A stretch of DNA of 64,000 nt from a virus, in IMG/VR virus record IMGVR_UViG_3300005532_000006, positions 1-64,000 of that record, one strand, 5' to 3'. Below are positions 3,068 to 38,582 of this stretch, piece by piece; the first letter of the stretch is position 1, and every line of letters begins with the position of its first letter. The position numbers and the translations under genes are program-made. Under the pieces are notes generated by a model. It searched no databases. It saw only the letters and a program-made list of their open reading frames with translations, and had not been told where the DNA came from.

Positions 3068-3345
3068 GCGCGTCCTCCGCAGGGTCGGGCCGGTCGGGTT
3101 CGTTGGGCCGGCGCGCCGGCGGGTTCAAGAGGCCGAGGTGGCGGGTCAGCGCGTCGAGCGCCGCCTTCTTGTCGTGCAGCTTGACCCGCGGCCCGGAGGC
3201 GCCGCTGCCCGGCACAATCTCGGAGATCGCCGCCGCCTCGGCGTCGCTCAGGTCCTCGGGCCGTTTCAGCACGAACCCATCGGGCCCCCAGTCGGCCACG
3301 CGGCGCAGATCGGCGAAGGCGATGCGGGCGTATTCCTGCAATATG
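3012..3345 (-). pseudogene. terS: 5'-truncated terminase small subunit
   Basis: LQEYARIAFAD...VKLHDKKAALDALTRHLG is the C-terminal half of a terS; the N-terminal HTH part is missing; lies directly upstream of terL. Confidence 0.7.
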
Positions 3346-3441
3346 CAACAGCCCCGCAACCGCAATGGCTTACGATGCGCTTTCCGTCATCTTTTCCGTC
3401 GTTTGTTCTTGGGGCGTGCCAACGTGAGGCGGCCTGAGCCT

Positions 3442-3929: not shown

Positions 3930-4559
3930 TCACGCCTGCAGTTCGGCAGACCAGTAGAGCCAGCCGCCGAAATCGTCCTTGATGTCGGCCGGCAGGAACT
4001 CGAGCCCGGCCCGGAGCAATTCCGCTCGGCTCGGCCGCCGCGGCGGCCTCAGTGGGCGCATCTGCCCCGCCGACGGCTTGCCTTTGCGGCCGGAGTAGTT
4101 CGGCAGGCTGTTGGCCTTCAGCGCGTTGCACCGCAGGCAGGCCGTGACGATGTTCTCCCACACGGTTTTGCCGCCGCGGGAGCGGGGGGTCACGTGGTCG
4201 TACGTCAATTCCGGCGACGGGAAGCGCTTGCCGCAGTAGCAGCAGGCCATCCGATCCCGCAGCAGGATGTTGCGGCGGCAGAACTTGACCTCACCCGAGA
4301 TCGGCGCGTACTCGCGCAGCATGATCACCTTCGGGATCGCGATCGTCGTCGAGGGCGACCGGAAGAACGCGTCCTCCCAAGTGTCGACGATCGAAGCCCG
4401 ATCGCGCCAGATCGCCGATACGGCGTCTTGTGCTGGGATGATGCTCAGCGGGAACGTGCTGAGCGGATTGCCGTCGGCGTTGAGCACGAGACAACGATGC
4501 TCGGCCGGGCGCAGCGATCTTCGCTGGTGGTGCTCGGAAAGCCGAGCGGCGGCGGTCAT
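3930..4559 (-). CDS. HNH endonuclease (McrA-like), last gene of the tRNA operon
   Basis: RRNILLRDRMACCYCG...TYDHVTPRSRGGKTVWENIVTACLRCNALK; SD-like GGGAGG before the ATG at 4559. Confidence 0.92.
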   Translation of the reverse strand: MTAAARLSEHHQRRSLRPAEHRCLVLNADGNPLSTFPLSIIPAQDAVSAIWRDRASIVDTWEDAFFRSPSTTIAIPKVIMLREYAPISGEVKFCRRNILLRDRMACCYCGKRFPSPELTYDHVTPRSRGGKTVWENIVTACLRCNALKANSLPNYSGRKGKPSAGQMRPLRPPRRPSRAELLRAGLEFLPADIKDDFGGWLYWSAELQA

Positions 4560-4581: not shown

Positions 4582-4655
4582 TGGAGCTGACGGTCGGGAT
4601 CGAACCGACATCGGCGCATTACGAGTGCGCTGCACTGCCCTTGTGCTACGCCAGC
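4582..4655 (-). tRNA. tRNA-Thr(CGT)
   Basis: Cloverleaf, anticodon loop CTCGTAA, CCA end. Confidence 0.9.
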
Positions 4656-4660
4656 ATATC

Positions 4661-4734
4661 TGGTGCGGGCAGAGGGAATCGAACCCTCGTCAACGGCTTA
4701 AAAGGCCGTAGCTTGTCCTTCCAGCTATACCCGC
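4661..4734 (-). tRNA. tRNA-Lys(TTT)
   Basis: Loop CTTTTAA, TTCGA T-loop, CCA. Confidence 0.9.
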
Positions 4735-4738
4735 GGAG

Positions 4739-4815
4739 TGGTGCGCGACCCGAAACTCGAACTCGGAACATCCGGAATTTGAAGCCGGTGCCTCTGCCAG
4801 TTGGGCTAGTCGCGC
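4739..4815 (-). tRNA. tRNA-Leu(CAA), short variable region
   Basis: Loop TTCAAAT, A73, CCA. Confidence 0.8.
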
Positions 4816-4819
4816 GGGA

Positions 4820-4895
4820 TGGGGCGCCCGGTGAGGATCGAACTCACAATCTCCCGGTTCGGAGCCGGGTGCACGGTCCATCGTGCTGCGAGCGC
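4820..4895 (-). tRNA. tRNA-Arg(CCG)
   Basis: Loop CTCCGAA, CCA. Confidence 0.9.
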
Positions 4896-4899
4896 GTGA

Positions 4900-4974
4900 T
4901 GACGAGCCTGCGAGGAATCGAACCCCGATCCGCCGGGTAGAAGCCGGCTGCACTGTCCATTGTGCTACAGGCCC
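4900..4974 (-). tRNA. tRNA-Arg(TCT)
   Basis: Loop CTTCTAC; 3' end GTCA (CCA not encoded). Confidence 0.85.
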
Positions 4975-4981
4975 GTGAGGT

Positions 4982-5053
4982 TGGCGCCCCGCCGAGGAGT
5001 CGAACCCCGCGTCCCGGGTTCGTAGCCCAGGCCCCAGATCCGCTGGGCGAGGC
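4982..5053 (-). tRNA. tRNA-Arg(ACG)
   Basis: Loop CTACGAA, CCA, reduced D-arm. Confidence 0.82.
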
Positions 5054-5062
5054 GAAAGGAAT

Positions 5063-5136
5063 TGGCCGCGCAGACGGGATTTGAACCCGCGTTTCCCTGT
5101 TTGAAGGACAGGTGTCCTGCCTTAGACGACCGCGCG
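5063..5136 (-). tRNA. tRNA-Glu(TTC)
   Basis: Loop CCTTCAA (C33), CCA. Confidence 0.85.
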
Positions 5137-5137
5137 A

Positions 5138-5212
5138 TGGTAGGCCCGGCCGGTAACGCTCCGGCACCTCCGCCGTGTCGAGGCGGCGCACAACCTTCTA
5201 TGCGACGGGCCT
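5138..5212 (-). tRNA. tRNA-Val(GAC)
   Basis: Loop TCGACAC (C33), atypical T-loop AGCGTTA, CCA. Confidence 0.78.
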
Positions 5213-5286
5213 GTACCCGGTAGAGGATTCGCACCCCTGCTGACGCGGTGTGTAGGACCGCCGCTCTGCTGCTGAGCTAACCGGGC
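5213..5286 (-). tRNA. tRNA-Val(TAC)
   Basis: Loop CCTACAC (C33); abuts tRNA-Val(GAC); CCA incomplete. Confidence 0.78.
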
Positions 5287-5291
5287 GATGA

Positions 5292-5369
5292 TGGTCGGGG
5301 CGGGCGGATTTGAACCGCCGGTCTCCTGCTTCCGAAGCAGGCACTTTGGCCAGGCTAAGCTACGCCCCG
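5292..5369 (-). tRNA. tRNA-Pro(CGG)
   Basis: CGGGGCG acceptor, loop TTCGGAA, CCA. Confidence 0.92.
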
Positions 5370-5441
5370 TGGCGCCGACACTCGGAATCGAACCGAGGCT
5401 CCTGCCTTTAGGAGAGGCGGGCGCGATCCGTCGCTGTCGGC
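5370..5441 (-). tRNA. tRNA-Arg(CCT)
   Basis: Loop CTCCTAA, CCA, short D-arm. Confidence 0.78.
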
Positions 5442-5447
5442 CGGAAA

Positions 5448-5523
5448 TGGTCCGGAAGGAGGGACTCGAACCCCCGATATCCTCGCTCCAAACGAGGCGG
5501 TCTAGCCGCTGACCTACTCCCGG
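5448..5523 (-). tRNA. tRNA-Pro(TGG)
   Basis: Loop TTTGGAG, CCA. Confidence 0.9.
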
Positions 5524-5524
5524 C

Positions 5525-6763
5525 TTATCCTTTTACGCACAACACTTGACGAAGCTGGTGCACGATATCGACCAGATCGGCCTGTGCCGCCATCACCGTA
5601 TCGATATCCTTGTACGCCATTGGCGTCTCATCAATGACGCCCTCATCCTTGCGACACTCGACGCCGGCGGTTGCACGAACGTGATCATCGAGCGTGAACA
5701 GCTTCTTGGCCTCAGAACGGCTCATCTTCCGGCCAGCGCCGTGCGAGCATGACATGAAGCTGTCGGGATTGCCCTTGCCGCGCACGATGTAAGAGCGCGC
5801 ACCCATCGAACCGGGAATGATGCCGAGGTCGCCCTCGCGCGCCCTCACGGCGCCCTTGCGTGTGAGCAGCACATTCTGGCCGAAATGGTTTTCGCGGGCG
5901 ACGTAGTTGTGATGGCAATTGACCGCTTCTTCGTTCCACGTGATTCCGGGCTTGCCGAGCGCGCCGACAACCGCGCGCAGAGTCGCATCGAGCATGACGC
6001 GGCGGTTCTCGACCGCAAAATCCTGCGCCCAACTCACCGCTTGCATGTAGTCGTCAAATGCTTCGCTGCCTTCCGGCAGATAGGCCAAATCTTGGTCCGG
6101 CAGGTTAATGAACCAGCGCTTCATGTCGGCCTTGGCGCGGTCGATGAAAAAGCTGCCGATGGCATTGCCGATGCCGCGCGAACCCGAGTGCAGCATGATC
6201 CAGACGCGCTGTTCCTCATCTAGGCAGACCTCGATGAAGTGGTTGCCGGTGCCGAGCGTGCCGAGATGGTGCGGAGCACGCGCCGAGGCTCGCGTAAGTT
6301 TTGGATGCTTCTCGACGATCGCAGCCAGCCTTGCGGCGAGCGACTGGTTGCCGTGCTTGCCGATCATGTAGAGCACGTTCGCCGGCAATTCGCCCCACGC
6401 GCCGCGGTCGTTGATGCCGCCGTTATCGGTGCGGCCGTGCGGCACCGACGCCTCGATCGCGGCACGCATCGGCGCGAGGTTGTCGGGCAAGTCCGAGGCG
6501 GTCAGCGACAGCCGCGCCGCCACCATGCCGCAACCGATATCGACCCCGACCGCAGCCGGGATAATCGCGCCCTTCGTCGCGATAACCGAGCCGACCGTCG
6601 CGCCCATCCCCCAATGCACATCCGGCATCGCGGCGACATGCTTGTAAATGAACGGCAGCCCCGCGACGTTGCGGAGTTGATCAATGGCCATGCGCTCGAC
6701 CGGGACATCTTTCGTCCACATTTTGATCGGCTTCCCGGCGTCCGCGATTACCTCGTAAGACAC
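5525..6763 (-). CDS. rtcB: RtcB family RNA ligase (tRNA repair/splicing)
   Basis: MPDVH, VGVDIGCGM, GTLGTGNHFIE, HSGSRG, NCHHNY, RKGA, IIPGSMG and SCSHGAGR motifs. Confidence 0.97.
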   Translation of the reverse strand: MSYEVIADAGKPIKMWTKDVPVERMAIDQLRNVAGLPFIYKHVAAMPDVHWGMGATVGSVIATKGAIIPAAVGVDIGCGMVAARLSLTASDLPDNLAPMRAAIEASVPHGRTDNGGINDRGAWGELPANVLYMIGKHGNQSLAARLAAIVEKHPKLTRASARAPHHLGTLGTGNHFIEVCLDEEQRVWIMLHSGSRGIGNAIGSFFIDRAKADMKRWFINLPDQDLAYLPEGSEAFDDYMQAVSWAQDFAVENRRVMLDATLRAVVGALGKPGITWNEEAVNCHHNYVARENHFGQNVLLTRKGAVRAREGDLGIIPGSMGARSYIVRGKGNPDSFMSCSHGAGRKMSRSEAKKLFTLDDHVRATAGVECRKDEGVIDETPMAYKDIDTVMAAQADLVDIVHQLRQVLCVKG

Positions 6764-6789
6764 AGGCCTATCTCCTCGGGAAGTTGATA

Positions 6790-6863
6790 TGGCGCTCGCA
6801 GGCGGGATCGAACCGCCGTTCCGGCATCGACAGTGCCGTGTCCTGCCATTGAACGATGCGAGC
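6790..6863 (-). tRNA. tRNA-Asp(GTC)
   Basis: Loop CTGTCGA, G73, CCA. Confidence 0.88.
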
Positions 6864-6939
6864 TCTTGAGGGTGCCGCGGGCGCCTGCTCTTGGACCTAT
6901 GGCGCCGGCGCGGCGCGCCCGATCGTCACCGGGCGGTTC

Positions 6940-7013
6940 TGGTAGGGCCGTGCGGAGTTGAACCGCATCCTGCCGGTTAAGAGCCGGCTGCTCGACCGAT
7001 GAGCTACGACCCC
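6940..7013 (-). tRNA. tRNA-Lys(CTT)
   Basis: Loop CTCTTAA, CCA. Confidence 0.9.
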
Positions 7014-7017
7014 AAGC

Positions 7018-7093
7018 TGGTACTCCTGGCCTGTGCTGCCCAGGCATCTCGCGCTTATCGGGCGCGCGTTCTCGGCTGTTGAACTACAGGAGC
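7018..7093 (-). tRNA. tRNA-Ile(GAT)
   Basis: Loop CCGATAA (C33), T-loop GGCAGCA, CCA. Confidence 0.8.
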
Positions 7094-7100
7094 ATTTTGG

Positions 7101-7184
7101 TGGTGCGGAGGTGTGGTGCTGCCCCACTCCCCGAAGGACGGGTTTTACAGACCCGCTGCCGGAAGCTGCCGGCTTTCCCTCCGC
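7101..7184 (-). tRNA. tRNA-Tyr(GTA)
   Basis: Loop CTGTAAA, variable arm, T-loop GGCAGCA, CCA. Confidence 0.8.
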
Positions 7185-7190
7185 AATGAT

Positions 7191-7265
7191 TGGTGCTGAC
7201 GAGTGGACTTGAACCACTGACCTTCCCCTTACCAAGGGGATGCACCGCCGCTGTGCTACGTCAGC
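7191..7265 (-). tRNA. tRNA-Thr(GGT)
   Basis: Loop TTGGTAA, CCA. Confidence 0.92.
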
Positions 7266-7268
7266 AGA

Positions 7269-7356
7269 TGGAGGAAGGTGGAGGCATCGAACCTCTGTCG
7301 CAGAGCGACACTATGGTTTAGCAAACCATTCGGGGGAGCCTACCCCAGCACCTTCC
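7269..7356 (-). tRNA. tRNA-Ser(GCT)
   Basis: Loop TTGCTAA, long variable arm, CCA. Confidence 0.88.
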
Positions 7357-7426
7357 GTCGTCCCTTCCTGGTGTATCGCTTGCCGCACGACACGACCTTG
7401 TGGCCGAGCCGGCGCAACGCACGAGC

Positions 7427-7514
7427 TGGCGGAGAGCGAGGTACTCGAAACCCAGTCCGTGAGGACCCATCCCGCTTCGAACGGGCGGTGGTGCGCCTGC
7501 CCACTTCACTCTCC
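7427..7514 (-). tRNA. tRNA-Ser(CGA)
   Basis: GGAGAG acceptor, loop TTCGAAG, long variable arm. Confidence 0.88.
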
Positions 7515-7519
7515 AAGAT

Positions 7520-7607
7520 TGGCGGAGCGTGATCGCATCGAACGATCGCCGCAGTTGCGGCGCTGCCGTTTTCAAAACGGTGCGGGGAGCCAACCCCAGC
7601 ACGCTCC
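7520..7607 (-). tRNA. tRNA-Ser(TGA)
   Basis: Loop TTTGAAA, long variable arm, G73, CCA. Confidence 0.88.
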
Positions 7608-7609
7608 AG

Positions 7610-7696
7610 TGGAGGATGGCGTCGCTGCCGACGCGAACACCTTGCGGTGCCAACCGCTTTCCAAGCGGCGCCGGAGGCCGCTCCGGTTCACCATCC
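7610..7696 (-). tRNA. tRNA-Ser(GGA)
   Basis: Loop TTGGAAA, long variable arm, T-loop GTCGGCA. Confidence 0.82.
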
Positions 7697-7702
7697 CAAA
7701 AC

Positions 7703-7781
7703 TGGTACCCCACCGCGGATTCGAACCGCGAACCTCCGCCTTCTGAGGGCGGCGCCTCTGCCGGAGTTGGGCTAGTGGGGC
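7703..7781 (-). tRNA. tRNA-Leu(CAG), short variable region
   Basis: Loop CTCAGAA, A73, CCA. Confidence 0.88.
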
Positions 7782-7783
7782 GC

Positions 7784-7861
7784 TGGTACGCGCGGCCGGA
7801 TTCGAACCGGCACTGCCGAGCGCCTCGGGCTCGTGCCTCCTACCGATTGGGCTACGCGCGC
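7784..7861 (-). tRNA. tRNA-Leu(GAG), short variable region
   Basis: Loop CCGAGGC (C33), A73, CCA. Confidence 0.82.
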
Positions 7862-7868
7862 TTGATCT

Positions 7869-7951
7869 TGGTGCGGGCGACAGGAGTTGCACCTGCACGC
7901 TTGCGGCGGCGGGGTTTAAGCCCGCTGTGTCTGCTGTTCCACCACGCCCGC
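7869..7951 (-). tRNA. tRNA-Leu(TAA)
   Basis: Loop CTTAAAC, variable arm, CCA. Confidence 0.87.
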
Positions 7952-7958
7952 GAGAAAG

Positions 7959-8033
7959 TGGTCGCCCCGAGGGGTGTTGATCCCCTACCTCCCGGATGAG
8001 GGCCGGGTATCCAGACCGCTAGACGACGGGGCG
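7959..8033 (-). tRNA. tRNA-Glu(CTC)
   Basis: Loop CCCTCAT (C33), GTCTAGCGG D-arm, CCA. Confidence 0.83.
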
Positions 8034-8040
8034 CTGGATT

Positions 8041-8112
8041 TGGAAGCCCGCCTCGGGGTCGAACCGAGCCGCACGGCTTCAAAGGCCGCGATACCCTCCT
8101 GGGCCACGGGCC
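8041..8112 (-). tRNA. tRNA-Gln(TTG)
   Basis: Loop CTTTGAA, CCA, degenerate D-arm. Confidence 0.78.
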
Positions 8113-8121
8113 ATGAGTGAA

Positions 8122-8196
8122 TGGAAGCGAACCGGGGAGTCGAACCCACGATTTGCGCGTTCAGAGCGCGCCGTCCTGCCGTTGAACGAGTTCGCC
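8122..8196 (-). tRNA. tRNA-Gln(CTG)
   Basis: Loop CTCTGAA, CCA. Confidence 0.87.
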
Positions 8197-8197
8197 G

Positions 8198-8273
8198 TGG
8201 TGCCGCGGCTCGGACTTGCACCGAGGGCCAATCGCTTACAAGGCGATTGCTCTGCTGCTGAGCTACGCGCGGC
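8198..8273 (-). tRNA. tRNA-Thr(TGT)
   Basis: Loop CTTGTAA, CCA. Confidence 0.87.
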
Positions 8274-8274
8274 T

Positions 8275-8350
8275 TGGGGCGGCGCGCGGGTGCTGGCCCC
8301 GCTTCTTCCCCTCCACAGGGGGACGTGTCCGCTGGTCCACCAGCGCCGCC
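8275..8350 (-). tRNA. tRNA-His(GTG)
   Basis: Loop CTGTGGA, G-1:C73 present, T-loop GCCAGCA. Confidence 0.82.
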
Positions 8351-8360
8351 ACGATGCGAA

Positions 8361-8436
8361 TGGAGTTGCCGGTCGGAGTTGCACCGACATAAGACCCGCT
8401 TTGCAGGCGAGCGCCTCGCTGTTCGGCCACGGCAAC
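8361..8436 (-). tRNA. tRNA-Cys(GCA)
   Basis: Loop CTGCAAA, U73, CCA. Confidence 0.88.
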
Positions 8437-8440
8437 AAAT

Positions 8441-8513
8441 TGGCACCGGCGGAGCAGAATCGAACTCTCCTTCGCGGGTTTGGAGTCCGCGTTGTTCACC
8501 AGAACACGCCCGT
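8441..8513 (-). tRNA. tRNA-Trp(CCA)
   Basis: Loop CTCCAAA, G73, CCA. Confidence 0.85.
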
Positions 8514-8519
8514 ATGAAA

Positions 8520-8595
8520 TGGCTCCCATCCCAGGTACCGCCCCTGGCTGCATCCGCTTAACAGGCGGCGCCGTTCGCTTGCTCGGTCGATGGGA
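8520..8595 (-). tRNA. tRNA-Asn(GTT)
   Basis: TCCC acceptor, loop CTGTTAA, T-loop GGCGGTA. Confidence 0.83.
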
Positions 8596-8601
8596 ATGAA
8601 C

Positions 8602-8677
8602 TGGAGCGGGTAGCCGGACTCGAACCGGTCATCATCACCTTGGAAGGGTGAGGCCCTAGCCTTTGGACGATACCCGC
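8602..8677 (-). tRNA. tRNA-Gly(TCC)
   Basis: GCGGGTA acceptor, loop CTTCCAA, U73. Confidence 0.92.
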
Positions 8678-8686
8678 GTTGAATGA

Positions 8687-8762
8687 TGGTGCCGAGCCGA
8701 GGGATCGCACCTCGATATCCGGTTTTTCGGACCGGCGCATGCACTAGCACTGCCAGCTCGGC
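8687..8762 (-). tRNA. tRNA-Phe(GAA)
   Basis: Loop CCGAAAA (C33), CCA. Confidence 0.85.
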
Positions 8763-8764
8763 GA

Positions 8765-8836
8765 TGGTTGCGGCGGCCGGAGTTGCACCGGCGCGACGCG
8801 GCTTATGAGACCGCGCGGGAACTGTTCCTCACCGCA
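8765..8836 (-). tRNA. tRNA-Met(CAT), possibly initiator-like
   Basis: Loop CTCATAA, acceptor end CCGCAACCA, reduced D-arm. Confidence 0.75.
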
Positions 8837-8844
8837 TCAAGAAA

Positions 8845-8940
8845 TGGTAGGCGTCCTCGGTGCCGCCCCGAGCCGTCCCCGCTGATCTGGCAGGTCTCGG
8901 CCGTTTATAAAACGGCCCCGCGCTGCTGGCGCCGACGCCC
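8845..8940 (-). tRNA. tRNA-Ile(TAT) with long variable arm
   Basis: Stem GCCGT/ACGGC with loop TTTATAA; ~27-nt variable region with CCTGC/GCGGG hairpin; A73, CCA. Confidence 0.78.
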
Positions 8941-8947
8941 GATGAAT

Positions 8948-9023
8948 TGGAGCGGCCAGAGGTGGTCGAAACCTCATCTCGGCATTGGCAACGCCGCGCT
9001 CTCAGCCGTTGAGCTATGGCCGC
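8948..9023 (-). tRNA. tRNA-Gly(GCC)
   Basis: Loop TTGCCAA, U73, CCA. Confidence 0.92.
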
Positions 9024-9030
9024 AAAAGGA

Positions 9031-9104
9031 TGGTGGAGATGGTCGGAATCGAACCGACATTTTCTGCTTGCAGGGCAGAAGTCCTCCCGTTGAACGACAT
9101 CCCC
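9031..9104 (-). tRNA. tRNA-Ala(TGC)
   Basis: G3:U70 pair, loop CCTGCAA (C33), CCA. Confidence 0.88.
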
Positions 9105-34286: not shown

Positions 34287-34631
34287 TCAGGCCATCGCCA
34301 GTTGGCGGTCGGTCTCCGGCTCCGCCTCCCGGTCCTCGAATTCGATTACCAGCCGCTTGCCGACTGCGAGGGCCGCACGGTCGAGCGTATCGATTGTTAT
34401 GCCGGCACCGTTGGGGTCGAGAAGCCTGTCTACGGCGGTGCGGCTGGTGTGCATGCGGCGGGCCATCTCGGCCTTCGTGATGCCCGATAGCCGGATCCAG
34501 TCTGCCACCATGTAGGCGATCACCTTGCGCCACGCCTGATCGACCACGACTGCATCAATCCCCTCTTCGACGAGGAAATCGTCGAAATCGCTGCCGATAT
34601 GAGGATTTGTCTTTCCAGTGTTTGCGGTCAT
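34287..34631 (-). CDS. XRE-family HTH antitoxin (HigA-like)
   Basis: NPHIGSDFDDFL...TKAEMARRMHTSRTAVDRLLDP. Confidence 0.88.
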   Translation of the reverse strand: MTANTGKTNPHIGSDFDDFLVEEGIDAVVVDQAWRKVIAYMVADWIRLSGITKAEMARRMHTSRTAVDRLLDPNGAGITIDTLDRAALAVGKRLVIEFEDREAEPETDRQLAMA

Positions 34632-34987
34632 TTTGCTTTTTCCATTCGGCGTTTGCGCGCACGCGCCAGGTTGATGTCCGATTGAGGGGTTTTCTGCTGC
34701 TTCTTGATGAAGCCATGCAACAGCAGCATGCGACCCTCGTAGACGCTGAAGATCACCCGCGCGATGCGCGTCGGCAACTCGGTCCGCACCTCCCATAGCC
34801 CATTGCCCAGAGGCCGGCACAGCGGCAACCCGACTGGCCACCCGTACTCTGCCGCCTTGATGTCTCTCCCGATCGCAATCCGCTCATTCTCAGGCAAACC
34901 CTTGAGCCAATCCCTTACCGGCTCCGCTCCCGCCGCGGTCCTGTAGAACGAGACCGGGAGCTTTTTCCCTGACCCAGGCTGTACCAA
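34628..34987 (-). CDS. RelE/ParE-family (gp49-like) toxin
   Basis: FYRTAAGAEPVRDWL...GLWEVR...LLHGFIKKQQKTP. Confidence 0.88.
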   Translation of the reverse strand: MVQPGSGKKLPVSFYRTAAGAEPVRDWLKGLPENERIAIGRDIKAAEYGWPVGLPLCRPLGNGLWEVRTELPTRIARVIFSVYEGRMLLLHGFIKKQQKTPQSDINLARARKRRMEKAK

Positions 34988-35061
34988 ATTTGGTGCGCCA
35001 GTGCCAGGGATTAAATCGCTCCGCCCAGATAAAGGTTCCGTTACCGGCGAGCTCTTCGTCC

Positions 35062-35265
35062 TCACTCGCTCGCTTTCCCTCGCGGCTTCGGCCGGTGCAC
35101 CGGTATCTCGTCCCGCGACAGCCCGCGCTCGATAAGTTGGCGGATCGCTTCCGCCTCTGTGGGTATGCGGTGCGCGAACCGGAAATCCTCTATCGCCTTC
35201 GCCTGCTCCGTCGTCAGTGCGACGAGCTTCTTGACGGGGTAAATCACTGCTGAGTAGCGCGCCAT
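35062..35265 (-). CDS. Small ribbon-helix-helix-like repressor
   Basis: AIEDFRFAHRIPTEAEAIRQLIERGL; divergent from the plus-strand operon. Confidence 0.7.
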   Translation of the reverse strand: MARYSAVIYPVKKLVALTTEQAKAIEDFRFAHRIPTEAEAIRQLIERGLSRDEIPVHRPKPRGKASE

Positions 35266-35283
35266 CGCCTGGCAAAAATAGTC

Positions 35284-35340
35284 GATATTGACGCTATTGA
35301 CAAGAGCGCCTATAGGCTATATGTTCAATGCGTTCAATAG
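35284..35340 (+). promoter_or_regulatory. Promoter with inverted operator repeats
   Basis: TTGACA(35297)-17 nt-TATGTT; TATTGAC twice on the left and GTTCAAT twice on the right. Confidence 0.65.
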
Positions 35341-35400: not shown

Positions 35401-35733
35401 ATGGCTACGGCTACTGCCACACTTACCACATCCTCTCTGCACAATCTGCCCGTTGGCGACATCGTCGATGAACTCGGCGCACTGAAAGCCAGTATCGCGG
35501 ACCTCGAAGCCCGCGAGAAGCGGCTGCGCGACGAGCTGGTCGCCCGCGGCGTCGGTGAGGCCGAGGGTGCGCTGTTCCGCGCCACCGTCTCCGAGGCGAT
35601 CCGTTGGACGCTCGACAGTTCCTTGGTCAAGGAGCGGATGGGCCACGATTGGTGGAACCAACACTGCCGCACTGCCAGCGTGACGACGGTCAAGGTCTGC
35701 GCCCGCACCGGCTCCTTCAAGGCGGCGGCGTGA
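35401..35733 (+). CDS. Hypothetical phage protein
   Basis: SD AAGGAGA; IVDELGALKASIADLEAREKRLRDEL coiled coil. Confidence 0.7.
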   Translation: MATATATLTTSSLHNLPVGDIVDELGALKASIADLEAREKRLRDELVARGVGEAEGALFRATVSEAIRWTLDSSLVKERMGHDWWNQHCRTASVTTVKVCARTGSFKAAA

Positions 35734-35734
35734 G

Positions 35735-36277
35735 ATGGCCGCGACCAATCCCGCTGCCGGCGTTCGCCGGCGCAAGCCGCGCGCACGCCTCTACCGGCGG
35801 ATCGATCTGCGCCGCCGGCGGCGGCGCGTTCATCCCCCGACGATCACCGCGGAAGCCGCACTGCATCTGCTGATGGAAGAGGCGGATATCTTCGCAGTCG
35901 GCCGCAGCCGCTATCTCGTTGCGTGGATCGATGCCGACGTACTGGAAACCCTGATCGTCGCCGCGGGCGCCACCGAAGACCGCGAAGAGAACGGCGACGA
36001 CGAGCCGGATAGCGATCGCGAGCCGGATGTGGACGACGAGCCATCGGTCGGAGCCGATGATCTCGAAAGCGATGGTCTCGACGACGAGGGCGGCGAACGG
36101 ACCGACGAAGACGTGCTGCCTTCTCCAAGACCGCGGCCGCCCATCCTCGACGGCGGTCTCGTCGAAGTCAGCTACGACCCCGTGAACGGCCAGAAGGTTT
36201 TCACTGTCGTCCGCGCGTTGCGGGTCGATCTCGCCAGCCCCGAGCCGCCGCTCGTCGCACCGACAGGAGCACGCTAA
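35735..36277 (+). CDS. Hypothetical acidic protein
   Basis: Translationally coupled within the operon. Confidence 0.55.
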   Translation: MAATNPAAGVRRRKPRARLYRRIDLRRRRRRVHPPTITAEAALHLLMEEADIFAVGRSRYLVAWIDADVLETLIVAAGATEDREENGDDEPDSDREPDVDDEPSVGADDLESDGLDDEGGERTDEDVLPSPRPRPPILDGGLVEVSYDPVNGQKVFTVVRALRVDLASPEPPLVAPTGAR

Positions 36278-36924
36278 TGGCAAAGAGCACAAAAGCGAAG
36301 GATGAGGCACCAAGCGCGATCGTCGTGATCGAACCGCCGAAGTTCCAGCGGGCCGTGATCCGGATCGTGGGCACGTCGCCCTACGTGCAGAATAAATTCA
36401 GCCAGAAGGCGCGCGAGCAGATGGAGGCGAAACAGCGCGCCGGATCGCAGGCGACAAAGGGCCGCAAACGCGAGCCCAAGGACTTCGACGCGGTCTACGA
36501 AGGGGCGCTGCACGTCAGCCGCGAGGGTTGGTACGGCATTCCGGCGCCCGCCTTCCGCAACGCGATGATCTCCGCGTGCCGGGTCGTTGGATTTCGCATG
36601 ACGCTCGCAAAGCTGAGCGTCTTCATTGAGGCCGATGGGTTCGACCGTGACGACGGTACTCCCCTGGTCAAGATCGAGGGTGCTCCAAGGCCCTTTCATA
36701 TGACTGCCCGTAACGAGACGGGTGTAGCGGACGTTCGGGTGCGGCCGATCTGGGATGACTGGTCCGCCAATGTGCGGGTACGCTGGGACGCGGATCAGTT
36801 CTCCGCGACAGACATCATGAACCTGCTGGCGCGCGCCGGCATGCAGGTCGGCGTTGGCGAAGGTCGGCCGGACAGCAGAAACAGCAACGGCCTCGGTTGG
36901 GGCCTTTGGGAGGTGGCAGGATGA
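36277..36924 (+). CDS. Solo RAMP/Cas7-like protein
   Basis: IRIVGTSPY (beta1), GIPAPAFRNAMISAC (IPxxxxK/R helix), RPIWDDWSANVRV, C-terminal G-rich loop AGMQVGVGEGRP...GLGWGLWEV. Confidence 0.7.
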   Translation: MAKSTKAKDEAPSAIVVIEPPKFQRAVIRIVGTSPYVQNKFSQKAREQMEAKQRAGSQATKGRKREPKDFDAVYEGALHVSREGWYGIPAPAFRNAMISACRVVGFRMTLAKLSVFIEADGFDRDDGTPLVKIEGAPRPFHMTARNETGVADVRVRPIWDDWSANVRVRWDADQFSATDIMNLLARAGMQVGVGEGRPDSRNSNGLGWGLWEVAG

Positions 36925-37388
36925 GAACCAAATCGACAGTCGCCGGGGAACTTCTGGCGCTCGCGTCGCAGATCAACACCGGCGACAAATTGCAGGCGCA
37001 ACAGGTAGTCGATTGGGCGCGCTCGCACCCGAAATCGGCGCTCTACGCTGCCCTGTGTCCGCTTGGCACCGACGGGAAGTGGGATCTTGTCAAGGCCGCC
37101 GAAGAATATTTGTTGCATCAGGCCCGGCGGCTCATTGCGGTCCACATTGTGGACGAAGCGGGAGCGCGCAAGGTCGTATCACTCAGCGTTGACCGCGTCT
37201 CTGGCGGCGGCTATCGGCGCGTCAAAGACGTGCTGATGGATGTGGAACTGACCGCCGTCATGCTCAAGGACGCGCTGGCAGAACTTCAGAGGGTGCGGCT
37301 GAAGTACGAGACGGTTCAGGCTCTCGCCGGTGTGTGGCGCGAACTGGACCGGGTCAAAGAGCAGTACCGCAACGAGGACGCTGCTTAG
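36921..37388 (+). CDS. Helical accessory protein coupled to the RAMP-like gene
   Basis: ATGA overlap; VVDWARSHPKSALY...AAEEYLLHQARRLI...ALAELQRVRLKY. Confidence 0.75.
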   Translation: MRTKSTVAGELLALASQINTGDKLQAQQVVDWARSHPKSALYAALCPLGTDGKWDLVKAAEEYLLHQARRLIAVHIVDEAGARKVVSLSVDRVSGGGYRRVKDVLMDVELTAVMLKDALAELQRVRLKYETVQALAGVWRELDRVKEQYRNEDAA

Positions 37389-37412
37389 GTTCAGGACAGT
37401 ATCATGAGTTCG

Positions 37413-37641
37413 GGCACGGATGGGCTAGGCGCAGCTGGGCAAGGCCAGGCCCGGCACCGCAGGCGTGGCAAGGCACAGCGAGGGATGGCGGGGCATGGCG
37501 AGGCTGGGTTGGGCAACGCAACACACGGCAGGCATGGCGACGTGTGGCTAGGCCAGGCGAGGCATCGCGGGTCACGGCTCGGCACCGCAGGCGAGGCAAC
37601 GGAACTGGCTTGGCGAGGCAGGGCAAACCATGGCAGGGCCA
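37413..37641 (+). repeat. 5-nt periodic GGC-NN array, probable non-coding RNA
   Basis: About 45 consecutive pentamers, most starting GGC (GGCAC GGATG GGCTA GGCGC AGCTG GGCAA GGCCA...), punctuated by CACCGCAGGC / CACGGCAGGC. Confidence 0.85.
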
Positions 37642-37666
37642 AGGGGGCGGCTTTCGGGCCGCCTCT
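37642..37666 (+). terminator. GC-rich hairpin closing the array
   Basis: AGGGGGCGGCT-TTCG-GGCCGCCTCT; weak U-tract. Confidence 0.6.
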
Positions 37667-37758
37667 CCGCGTTCTGTAGCATTCTATGGAACCGTAGTTG
37701 ACAGCCTCCGTTGGCGTATCATATTGATACAGCCAGCTAGGGCTGTTGGCGCGGATGA

Positions 37759-38106
37759 ATGGCCGATCCCATACCGTTCAAACGGCCCGTCAACTGGGCC
37801 AGGCTTCGCGCCGACCAAGCCGAAGCGATCGTCCGCGAGCGCGCCAAGACCGAGGTCAACGTCATCTTCGGCGATCATGCGTTCGACCGTATCGACGACC
37901 GCTCGATCCTCGCCGAAGACGCCTACTGGATTTTGCAGACTGGGTTTGTCGAGGGGCAGCCGGAGTATGTGGGCGAAGGCGAGTGGAAGGTCATCATGGT
38001 TCGCCGCATGCCCGGATGCCGCGAGGCGGGTGTCGTCACAATCATTGTCTCAAGCAACGATGAGGTCTTCGTAAAAACCGTGGAATGGATGGATTGGCTC
38101 AGATGA
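37759..38106 (+). CDS. DUF4258-like toxin (RelE-fold)
   Basis: VIFGDHAFDRIDDRSI...ILQTG...VFVKTV. Confidence 0.75.
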   Translation: MADPIPFKRPVNWARLRADQAEAIVRERAKTEVNVIFGDHAFDRIDDRSILAEDAYWILQTGFVEGQPEYVGEGEWKVIMVRRMPGCREAGVVTIIVSSNDEVFVKTVEWMDWLR

Positions 38107-38582
38107 CCGACCAGATGACCGAACTGCACCATTACACGAACTGCGGCCTGGACTATGTCTACCTGCGCAACGGCTTTGTGGTGCGAGAGACGCGCCATGG
38201 CCGCGGGATCGCGATCCACGACGCCGCAGCGCTGCACGAGGCCATCGCGCGCGTCGTGATTACGCGACCGCAGCGTTTGCGCGGCCAGGAAGTGCGCTTT
38301 CTGCGCTCGCTGCTCAAGCTTTCGCAGGATGGACTGGCTCGCATTCTGCGCACGAGGCGTGTTTCGGTGGCGCGTTGGGAAGCGCGGCCGAACCATCCCA
38401 TACCGGGCGCCGCCGACTCGGCCCTGCGCTTGTTCTACGCGTTGAAGCTCGAGAAGCACGGTCTTGCCCAGCAGATTTGCGAAATCCTGGCCGAGCTGGA
38501 CGATTTGGAGCATTCGTTGCATGTGATGAGCGACATCAGGCTGCGCGAAACCGAGCGCGGCTGGCAGCGAGAGGCAGCCTGA
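38103..38582 (+). CDS. MqsA/YgiT-like HTH antitoxin
   Basis: HYTNCGLDYVYLRNGF...EVRFLRSLLKLSQDGLARIL...VARWE. Confidence 0.82.
   Translation: MTDQMTELHHYTNCGLDYVYLRNGFVVRETRHGRGIAIHDAAALHEAIARVVITRPQRLRGQEVRFLRSLLKLSQDGLARILRTRRVSVARWEARPNHPIPGAADSALRLFYALKLEKHGLAQQICEILAELDDLEHSLHVMSDIRLRETERGWQREAA

What the first reader, a model, noticed from the sequence alone, without database searches (positions are those of the whole stretch)
36277..37666. Solo RAMP/Cas7-like protein, accessory protein and GGC-NN periodic RNA: candidate non-CRISPR RNA-guided system in a phage
Seen in sequence: a tight plus-strand operon ending in a 215-aa ORF, an ATGA-coupled 155-aa helical ORF, a ~230-nt tract with near-strict 5-nt periodicity, and a UUCG-capped hairpin. 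The 215-aa protein has the RAMP/Cas7 layout: N-terminal strand IRIVGTSPY, GIPAPAFRNAM helix and C-terminal glycine-rich loop GVGEGRP...GWGLWEV. No cas1/2/3/5/6 genes or CRISPR array were seen in the window. Established: RAMP/Cas7 proteins polymerise along RNA with a fixed nucleotide step. Inference: each pentamer is one protomer footprint, with invariant GGC as the protein-bound scaffold and the variable NN as information specifying a gapped target such as a competing phage or host gene. I recall a recently reported phage class with this architecture (RAMP plus GGY/NN repeat RNA, named VIPR) but cannot verify the match here.
Basis: partly seen in the sequence, partly recalled or inferred. Interest (0 to 1): 0.95.

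Follow-up and report, generated by a model that had tools for sequence, protein, structure and literature searches.

The report
Phage VIPR system with four-guide array
This phage carries a VIPR system (a small Cas7-like protein, an accessory gene and an array of GGC-NN pentamer guide RNAs), a kind of RNA-guided DNA silencer first described in 2026 preprints, so it is a real new member of a known family, not a new kind of system.

Summary
ORF 36277-36924 (215 aa) overlaps ORF 36921-37388 (155 aa) by ATGA. A 229-nt tract (37413-37641) of 46 units follows, 33 of them canonical GG[C/T]NN, then a 10-bp UUCG-looped hairpin (37643-37666). No other stretch of the 64-kb window reaches this in-register GGY density.

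VIPR is described in three bioRxiv preprints of 2026.
- The 215-aa protein's only hit among solved structures is the SUSP1 Vipr protein (phmmer E 2e-4; hhalign to a SUSP1-family Vipr 89.7%, E 1.9e-6).
- 84 of 92 related loci score a same-strand GGY pentamer array beside the gene. The eight that do not belong to four locus groups and, in a representative of each inspected, carry variant-scaffold arrays.
- The 155-aa partner is found in 77 of 94 related loci.
- Pooled over 4,782 units, GGY is conserved and NN carries 0.06 and 0.02 bits.

Three 4-nt junctions (CGCA, GGCA, CGCA) shift the register by -1 and divide the tract into four guides. This is the "staggered array" the preprint mentions.

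No natural target was found. Expression and binding could not be tested. Verdict: new member of a known kind, moderate interest.

The parts
35297..35325 (+). Sigma-70-like promoter candidate (TTGACA-17-TATGTT) upstream of the co-oriented gene run that ends in vipr-vap and the array
   Evidence: Consensus scan: 3 sites found against 0.5 expected in shuffles. A consensus match only. No promoter-like site lies between vap and the array.
35401..36277 (+). Two co-oriented, tightly packed ORFs of unknown function (110 aa at 35401-35733; 180 aa at 35735-36277) just upstream of vipr. They are not part of the conserved module.
   Evidence: ORF list. No Pfam, PADLOC or NCBIfam family. No homologue in any of 94 related VIPR loci.
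36277..36924 (+). vipr: 215-aa stand-alone RAMP (Cas7-like) protein
36921..37388 (+). vap: 155-aa accessory protein, overlapping vipr by ATGA. It has a globular N-terminal part and a roughly 48-residue C-terminal helix.
37413..37461 (+). vrRNA 1: nine GGYNN units (NN = AC TG TA GC TG AA CA CC AC) and the 4-nt junction CGCA
   Evidence: Register parse. The junction lies inside a 13-mer that is repeated exactly at 37453 and 37581.
37462..37530 (+). vrRNA 2: thirteen units (NN = GT AA AC GA AT GG AT GA TG TG AA AA AC) and the 4-nt junction GGCA
   Evidence: Register parse. GGCA makes up 83% of the 519 four-nt units seen in arrays of related loci.
37531..37589 (+). vrRNA 3: eleven units (NN = AT GA GT TA CA GA AT GG AC TC AC) and the 4-nt junction CGCA
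   Evidence: Register parse.
37590..37641 (+). vrRNA 4: two units (GA AA), an irregular 7-nt unit at 37600, then seven units (TT GA AG AA AT AG CA)
   Evidence: Register parse. Whether the 7-nt unit splits this segment is not known.
37643..37666 (+). GC-rich hairpin (10-bp stem, UUCG loop) closing the array. It is a probable transcript end or 3' cap.
   Evidence: RNA fold: -30.1 kcal/mol for the 66-nt stretch, z -2.28. It does not pass the terminator scan because no T-run follows. A crude test found no general enrichment of hairpins after arrays in relatives.

Best explanation
This is a VIPR (Viral Interference Programmable Repeat) locus in a tailed phage. It consists of vipr (36277-36924), a vap accessory gene (36921-37388) and a staggered array of four vrRNAs (37413-37641) closed by a hairpin.

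The mechanism is inferred from the published SUSP1 system. The array is probably transcribed together with the genes upstream. Vipr protomers bind one per pentamer, sequester each GGY and present the NN dinucleotides. Each 4-nt junction ((C/G)GCA before GGC) shifts the register by -1, so a filament cannot run on and four separate guide particles of about 9, 13, 11 and 9 units form. Each particle would then bind double-stranded DNA that reads NN-x-NN-x..., skipping every third base, and silence transcription there. The likely target is a competing phage, prophage or satellite of the same host.

Shown here: homology, fold, architecture and co-occurrence across relatives. Inferred: transcription, processing, binding, the skip rule in this clade, and the target.
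For: - Sequence homology to an experimentally characterised Vipr. The only PDB hit is SUSP1 Vipr. hhalign to a SUSP1-family Vipr gives 89.7%, E 1.9e-6 over 164 columns.
- Contact residues. Of the residues that contact GGY in the SUSP1 structure, R138 maps to R156 and R179 to R197, both invariant in the 38-sequence alignment. D177 maps to E195, the majority residue.
- Array. 33 of 46 units are canonical, and the tract is unique in the window and strand-specific.
- Co-occurrence. 84 of 92 related loci score a GGY pentamer array on the vipr strand beside vipr or vap, and only three loci score any tract on the opposite strand. The eight non-scoring loci include a group of five near-identical ones. 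A representative of each of the four groups was inspected and carries an array with a variant scaffold (AGC-NN, GGA-NN or mixed GGN).
- Conservation pattern. Over 4,782 units from 82 arrays, the positions read G 0.90, G 0.88, Y 0.88, N4 0.06 bits and N5 0.02 bits.
- Junctions. The 4-nt junction is GGCA in 83% of 519 cases and recurs mostly every 8-11 units. This fits vrRNAs of 9-16 repeats and the 'staggered arrays' with 1-nt overlap in the preprint.
- Context. The record is a virus record. No Cas1, no Pfam RAMPs family, no CRISPR array and no PADLOC hit were found.
- Self-targeting. No self-target was found, as the preprint also reports for its systems.
Against: - No RNA data could be obtained, so transcription, processing at the junctions and Vipr binding are unshown.
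- No natural target was found in the phage itself, in related VIPR loci, in IMG/VR, in metagenome contigs or in 401 genomes.
- W178 of SUSP1, which stacks on G2, aligns to an invariant Gly. H17 aligns to a variable position (N39). GGY recognition may therefore differ in detail.
- 13 of 46 units are degenerate, and vrRNA 4 holds a 7-nt unit.
- The preprint reports sRNA-seq confirmation for the ribozyme and single-vrRNA architectures only. It reports none for staggered arrays.
- The 1-nt skip rule was established for type II systems only.
- Similarity to SUSP1 Vipr is weak at the single-sequence level (24 bits).
Confidence: 0.9

Rival explanations
1. It is the same VIPR machinery put to a different use. 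The guides would act on the phage's own or the host's genes as a timing or regulatory device, or on RNA rather than DNA, instead of silencing a competing mobile element.
For: No external target was found. The locus lies in an accessory island beside toxin-antitoxin-like genes and a divergent small gene. NN bases are 38% G+C in a 66.6% G+C phage, so the targets may be unusual sequence.
Against: No site in the 90.9-kb phage record matches any guide above the shuffled-guide null at skip 0, 1 or 2. Published natural targets are competing phages, prophages and satellites, on either DNA strand. The host genome is not known, so host targets were not really tested.
Confidence: 0.07
2. The locus is a decaying or inactive remnant. 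The genes are intact but the array has drifted (28% degenerate units, an irregular 7-nt unit) and no longer yields working guides.
For: 13 of 46 units are non-canonical, and there is one +2 slip. No target was found.
Against: Both ORFs are intact and overlap by ATGA. [quoted passage not shown] The junction spacing (9, 13 and 11 units) is typical of relatives. Most degenerate units keep the GC core of the scaffold (for example AGC, CGC), and AGC is the main scaffold in some relatives.
Confidence: 0.03
3. The tract is translated. ORF 37404-37679 (91 aa, rich in Gly, Ala and Arg) would be a real protein, and the 5-nt period a by-product.
For: One frame is open across 99% of the tract.
Against: Period-5 power is 6.36 against 0.55 at period 3; the vipr gene shows the reverse, 0.64 against 6.29. 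Only 29 of 65 homologous tracts of at least 150 nt are open throughout. The -1 junctions recur as a conserved RNA-level feature. T-poor sequence stays open by composition alone.
Confidence: 0.01

Closest known systems
VIPR systems: type II of Escherichia phage SUSP1 and the Pseudomonas fulva prophage (bioRxiv 10.64898/2026.04.26.720920, .720927, 2026.10.15.759431)
   Same: A single small RAMP protein homologous to SUSP1 Vipr. An adjacent accessory gene. Same-strand arrays of GGY/NN pentamers with hypervariable NN. No cas genes and no CRISPR array. Carried by a phage.
   Different: The Vipr is very divergent; tblastn of this protein against GenBank phages does not reach SUSP1-family phages. The accessory protein shows no similarity to the one in the vap1 position. 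The guides abut one another through 4-nt junctions with a -1 register shift, where SUSP1 vrRNAs each end in a conserved pseudoknot tail. SUSP1 W178 is replaced by Gly, and the G-loop is longer and ends in a conserved G-x-G-W-G motif. The VIPR type (I-VII) could not be assigned because the preprint's figures and data files are not held.
'Staggered vrRNA arrays' of the VIPR preprint (fig. S18 legend)
   Same: The legend says individual vrRNAs derive from 1-nt overlapping positions, so that the end of one marks the start of the next. Read as (C/G)GCAG overlapping GGCNN by one G, the three junctions here fit that description.
   Different: Only the legend could be read. The preprint does not report sRNA-seq confirmation for this architecture.
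Cas7-family backbone subunits of class 1 CRISPR effectors (Csm3, Cmr4, type VII Cas7, Cas7-11 domains)
   Different: About 10% identity. No match to Pfam RAMPs. No partner Cas5, Cas6, Cas10, Cas11 or Cas1 and no CRISPR array. A 5-nt step instead of 6-nt. Three guide bases are hidden per step and the target is gapped.
The same clade in named GenBank phages: Cyanophage Cy-LDV1 and Mycobacterium and Gordonia phages (for example Brocalys gp45)
   Same: Vipr homologues at 58% identity (Cy-LDV1) and about 35% (25 Mycobacterium and 5 Gordonia phage records), all annotated 'hypothetical protein'. Cy-LDV1 and Brocalys have GGC-NN arrays with GGCA|GGC junctions next to the gene.
   Different: In those temperate phages the locus lies beside the repressor and excisionase region. 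Here it lies in an accessory island within the tail-gene region of a tRNA-rich phage record of about 91 kb.

Membership tests
VIPR system | Vipr protein: a homologue of the described Vipr RAMP lineage | tested here: met
   The only PDB sequence hit is SUSP1 Vipr, at E 2e-4 and E 1.4e-5 with a profile. hhalign against the Vipr of SUSP1-family phage Alf5 gives Prob 89.7%, E 1.9e-6 over 164 columns.
VIPR system | GGY-contacting residues of the SUSP1 structure (H17, R138, D177, W178, R179) | tested here: inconclusive
   R138 maps to R156 and R179 to R197, both invariant. D177 maps to E195, a conservative change. W178 maps to invariant G196. H17 maps to variable N39. The alignment is remote, so single-residue mapping is uncertain.
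VIPR system | Adjacent vrRNA: at least 4 tandem YNNGG (GGY/NN) units with variable NN, on the vipr strand | tested here: met
   46 units, 33 canonical, 25 nt downstream of vap. The tract is unique in the window. In relatives GGY is conserved and NN carries 0.06 and 0.02 bits.
VIPR system | Minimal locus: vipr with a vap gene, no other cas genes and no CRISPR array | tested here: met
   vap is co-conserved in 77 of 94 loci, while the flanking genes are conserved in none. There is no Cas1 or Pfam RAMPs match in the record, no PADLOC hit and no CRISPR-like repeat.
VIPR system | vrRNA is expressed and co-purifies with Vipr | not testable with these tools
VIPR system | Guides match dsDNA targets by the 1-nt skip rule | tested here: inconclusive
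   No match above chance was found in the own genome, 94 related loci, IMG/VR, metagenome contigs or 401 genomes. The collection scans accept exact patterns only, and the host is unknown.
VIPR type II (SUSP1 clade) | vap1 accessory gene, and vrRNAs each ending in a conserved 3' tail or pseudoknot | tested here: not met
   The Vap profile against the protein in the vap1 position of Alf5 gives hhalign Prob 0.2%. The guides abut through 4-nt junctions without tails.
Class 1 CRISPR-Cas effector (type III or type VII Cas7) | A Cas7 backbone together with Cas5, Cas10, Cas11 or Cas6 partners and a CRISPR array | tested here: not met
   Only the fold is shared. There is no CRISPR array, no Cas1 or Pfam RAMPs family and no PADLOC cas model hit.

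The most novel reading that the evidence does not exclude
In this large Vipr clade the 4-nt (C/G)GCA junction may be the punctuation of the array. A -1 register shift would end one Vipr filament and start the next, so that one transcript yields several independent guide particles without tails, ribozymes or a dedicated processing enzyme. The clade's own accessory protein, unrelated in sequence to vap1 and carrying a long coiled-coil-like helix, would then be a new partner that dimerises or bridges filaments on DNA. The variant scaffolds in close relatives (AGC-NN, GGA-NN) would mean that scaffold specificity co-evolves with the G-loop.
Probability: 0.3. Interest if true: 0.55.

Novelty: new member of a known kind. 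Interest (0 to 1): 0.35.

Why it matters
VIPR is a very recent discovery: an RNA-guided DNA binder of about 20 kDa that reads a gapped code and has been proposed as an ancestor of CRISPR RAMPs. This locus does not change that picture. It does give a clean natural example of the least studied array form, in which four guides are separated only by -1 register slips.

It also belongs to a very large clade: 6,324 protein clusters matched in one search. That clade reaches named, culturable phages of Mycobacterium smegmatis and Gordonia, and a cyanophage record, where the genes are still annotated as hypothetical. Those phages offer tractable systems for three questions:
- how staggered arrays are processed;
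- what this clade's accessory protein does;
- how the scaffold triplet can change from GGY to AGC or GGA.

Tried and rejected
**Target search with the published 1-nt skip rule**
- Own 90.9-kb record: the best scores equal the shuffled-guide nulls at skip 0, 1 and 2. Skip 3 recovers the array itself, which serves as a positive control.
- 94 related VIPR loci: nothing above the null.
- IMG/VR exact scans:
  - Guide 2 with degenerate units masked: 0 hits.
  - Guide 3 in full: 0 hits.
  - Second half of guide 2 with AG added: 0 hits.
  - Guide 1 in full: 1 hit, L093. My rough estimate is that about one chance hit is expected. The locus has 46% G+C and no other guide matches it, so I rejected it as chance.
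  - Guide 3 masked: 8 hits, all AT-rich, none above 18 of 22.
- Metagenome scan with guide 2 masked: 24 seeds. The best scores 24 of 26 (L104). It has 43% G+C, lies at a gene boundary in a context that does not look like a phage, and has a family-wise chance of about 0.1-0.2, so I rejected it.
- 401 genomes of the order of the nearest named relative (an Aestuariivirga MAG), guide 2 with up to 3 mismatches: 0 hits.

**Vap function**
- No Pfam family passes its curated cutoff. phrog_15946 is of unknown function. PADLOC returned no family. The only NCBIfam row (TIGR03221) scores 13 bits against a cutoff of 130.6.
- Foldseek found nothing at E <= 0.001. A few winged-helix proteins (FOXP, IscR) appear at probability at or below 0.05.
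- The protein atlas returned only viral hypothetical clusters.

**Other checks**
- Hairpins after arrays in relatives are not enriched over random places in a crude test, so no conserved tail is claimed.
- A weak second tract at 75186-75290 (-) of the whole record, outside the window, is GC-rich coding sequence at a gene junction and was dismissed.
- Rfam found only tRNAs: no hammerhead and no other family in the locus.
- megablast of 15 kb around the locus against GenBank phages found no match.

- The genome search draws no relatives for a virus record.
Full report
**What is in the sequence**

On the + strand a 215-aa ORF (36277-36924) overlaps a 155-aa ORF (36921-37388) through ATGA. The stop codon of the second ORF is followed after 24 nt by a tract of pentamers. 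A register-aware parse gives 46 units over 37413-37641 (229 nt). 33 units start with GG[C/T], against 0.056 expected per position from base composition.

The tract is unique. All 60-nt windows with at least 6 of 12 in-register GGY lie at 37388-37670 on the + strand, and none lies on the - strand. Fourier power is 6.36 at period 5 and 0.55 at period 3. The vipr coding sequence shows the opposite, 0.64 and 6.29.

A 10-bp hairpin with a UUCG loop follows at 37643-37666. It lacks a T-run and fails a strict terminator scan.

The periodicity is not strict. 13 units are degenerate. Three 4-nt units (CGCA at 37458, GGCA at 37527, CGCA at 37586) shift the register by -1, and one 7-nt unit sits at 37600. 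The first and third junctions lie in an exact 13-mer repeat at 37453 and 37581.

**The literature lead is real**

A full-text search found three bioRxiv preprints of 2026 on "Viral Interference Programmable Repeat" systems. They describe:
- a stand-alone RAMP protein (Vipr) found by structure search;
- usually one accessory gene (vap);
- vrRNAs of 9-16 YNNGG repeats, in which GGY is conserved and NN is hypervariable;
- binding of double-stranded DNA with one skipped base per unit;
- transcriptional silencing of competing phages and satellites;
- seven types with different array architectures, among them "staggered arrays with overlapping vrRNAs".

**Is the 215-aa protein a Vipr?**

By sequence, its only match among all PDB chains is entry 36pp, "SUSP1 Vipr protein" (E 2e-4 over residues 29-199). 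A 38-sequence profile gives the same single significant hit (E 1.4e-5).

I located a SUSP1-family phage (Alf5) in GenBank using a 53-residue stretch printed. The profile was then compared with its Vipr: hhalign probability 89.7%, E 1.9e-6, 164 aligned columns.

The residues that hold GGY in the SUSP1 cryo-EM structure map as follows:
- R138 to R156, invariant in my alignment;
- R179 to R197, invariant;
- D177 to E195;
- W178 to an invariant Gly;
- H17 to a variable position.

Pfam, NCBIfam and PADLOC have no model for this protein. PHROGs has one of unknown function (phrog_4652, E 1.3e-18).

**Do relatives carry the RNA?**

The protein family is large: 6,324 clusters matched in one search. I fetched 92 loci encoding relatives at 48-70% identity, 12 from genomes and 80 from IMG/VR.
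- 84 loci score a GGY pentamer tract on the vipr strand directly beside vipr or vap. Only three loci score any tract on the opposite strand.
- The other eight are a group of five near-identical loci (L014-L018) and three more (L029, L036, L044). I inspected L014, L029, L036 and L044. All carry strongly 5-periodic arrays with another scaffold: AGC-NN, GGA-NN or mixed GGN. This agrees with the preprint's "related consensus".
- A ninth locus, L059, scores only at the 6-of-12 threshold and shows weak period-5 power.

Pooled over 4,782 five-nt units from 82 distinct arrays, the five positions read G 0.90, G 0.88, C/T 0.88, then 0.06 and 0.02 bits. The first three values are inflated because tracts were chosen by GGY. 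The last two are not.

The 4-nt unit is GGCA in 83% of 519 cases and recurs mostly every 8-11 units. The -1 slips in the window are therefore a family feature, not noise.

**The accessory gene and its neighbours**

The 155-aa protein has a homologue in 77 of 94 related loci, in varying order relative to vipr and the array. The two upstream ORFs (110 and 180 aa) and the downstream toxin-antitoxin-like genes have none. The conserved module is vipr, vap and the array.

Vap has no informative family or fold match. Its model shows a globular N-terminal part and a helix of about 48 residues that aligns only with coiled coils. It is not detectably related to the protein in the vap1 position of a SUSP1-family phage.

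**Reading the array**

The junctions divide the tract into four segments of 9, 13, 11 and 2+7 full units. If the last unit of a segment is read as (C/G)GCAG, sharing its final G with the next GGC, this is a 1-nt overlap. That is what the legend of the preprint's fig. S18 describes.

The mechanism I propose is an inference from the SUSP1 structures. One Vipr binds per pentamer. A filament cannot cross a -1 slip. One transcript therefore gives four guide particles, each specifying 26-38 bp of gapped target.

The only promoter-like site upstream lies at 35297-35325, and none lies between vap and the array. Co-transcription with the operon is therefore the simplest reading.

**Targets**

I applied the published scan (NN joined by one wildcard, both strands, shuffled-guide nulls). 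Nothing exceeded chance in:
- the phage's own 90.9-kb record;
- the related loci;
- IMG/VR;
- metagenome contigs;
- 401 genomes of the order of the nearest named relative.

The single exact IMG/VR hit for guide 1 and the 24-of-26 metagenome hit for guide 2 both lie in low-GC, unrelated contexts. Both are within chance expectation.

The collection scans need exact patterns and the host is unknown, so this is a weak negative. The NN bases are 38% G+C in a 66.6% G+C phage. NN positions are A-rich across the clade as well.

**Context**

The record is an IMG/VR-type virus record. It is linear, and CheckV estimates it 83% complete. It has 20 tRNA genes at 4.6-9.1 kb.

The VIPR module sits among accessory genes: a Gp49/HigB-like gene, a weak DUF4258 match and an HTH gene. 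Large minus-strand ORFs on both sides look like tail genes.

The same clade occurs in named GenBank phages. Cyanophage Cy-LDV1 has a homologue at 58% identity. 25 Mycobacterium and 5 Gordonia phage records have homologues at about 35%. All are annotated as hypothetical proteins. Cy-LDV1 and Brocalys carry GGC-NN arrays with GGCA|GGC junctions.

**Rivals**

- Translation of the tract is very unlikely. The periodicity is 5, not 3. Only 29 of 65 homologous tracts are open throughout, and the junction feature is conserved at the RNA level.
- A class 1 CRISPR fragment is excluded by the absence of an array and of other cas genes.
- Two readings remain open. The module could be used for self or host regulation or for RNA targeting, or it could be decaying. 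Both are minor variations on the same machinery.

**Verdict**

This is a new member of the VIPR family, with the staggered array form and an accessory protein unlike vap1. Its VIPR type could not be assigned because the preprint's figures and data files are not held.

Noticed in passing
L036:5150-5480 and L044:5570-6120; L029:3680-3960; L014:5060-5300: Close Vipr relatives (53-65% identity) use other scaffold triplets in their pentamer arrays. L036 and L044 use AGC-NN, with each segment ending AGCA and the next starting GGC. L029 uses GGA-NN and L014 a mixed GGN. The scaffold base seems to change within one protein clade.
   Followed up: partly
L118 (Cyanophage Cy-LDV1, BK059895.1) 3139-3360 and 3936-4104; L119 (Mycobacterium phage Brocalys, NC_031262.1) 2080-2353: Named GenBank phages carry the same vipr clade with GGC-NN arrays and GGCA|GGC junctions, next to the repressor and excisionase region. 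The genes are annotated as hypothetical proteins and the arrays are not annotated. 25 Mycobacterium and 5 Gordonia phage records have the protein.
   Followed up: partly
window 4585-9104 (-): A cluster of 20 tRNA genes in this phage record (Rfam tRNA hits at 41-67 bits).
   Followed up: no
window 34287-35275 (-) and 37759-38582 (+): Toxin-antitoxin-like pairs flank the VIPR operon. On the left is a Gp49/HigB-like gene (Pfam PF05973, E 2e-20) with an overlapping HTH-like ORF. On the right is a weak DUF4258 match followed by an HTH protein (phrog_5119, E 1e-27), preceded by a promoter-like site at 37698-37725. None of these genes is conserved in related VIPR loci.
   Followed up: partly
window 35401-36277 (+): Two ORFs (110 aa and 180 aa) lie between the promoter-like site and vipr. 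The 180-aa ORF has a very acidic central tract. Neither matches any family or has a homologue in 94 related loci, so their function is open.
   Followed up: partly
whole record 75186-75290 (-), outside the window: A weak in-register GGY signal (7 of 12). On inspection it is irregular, GC-rich sequence at the junction of two long ORFs, and not a convincing solo vrRNA.
   Followed up: yes
L093:5146-5171 (IMGVR_UViG_3300045988_026285): The only exact 1-nt-skip match to guide 1 in IMG/VR (18 of 18 specified bases). The locus has 46% G+C, no other guide matches nearby, and by my rough estimate about one such hit is expected by chance.
   Followed up: yes
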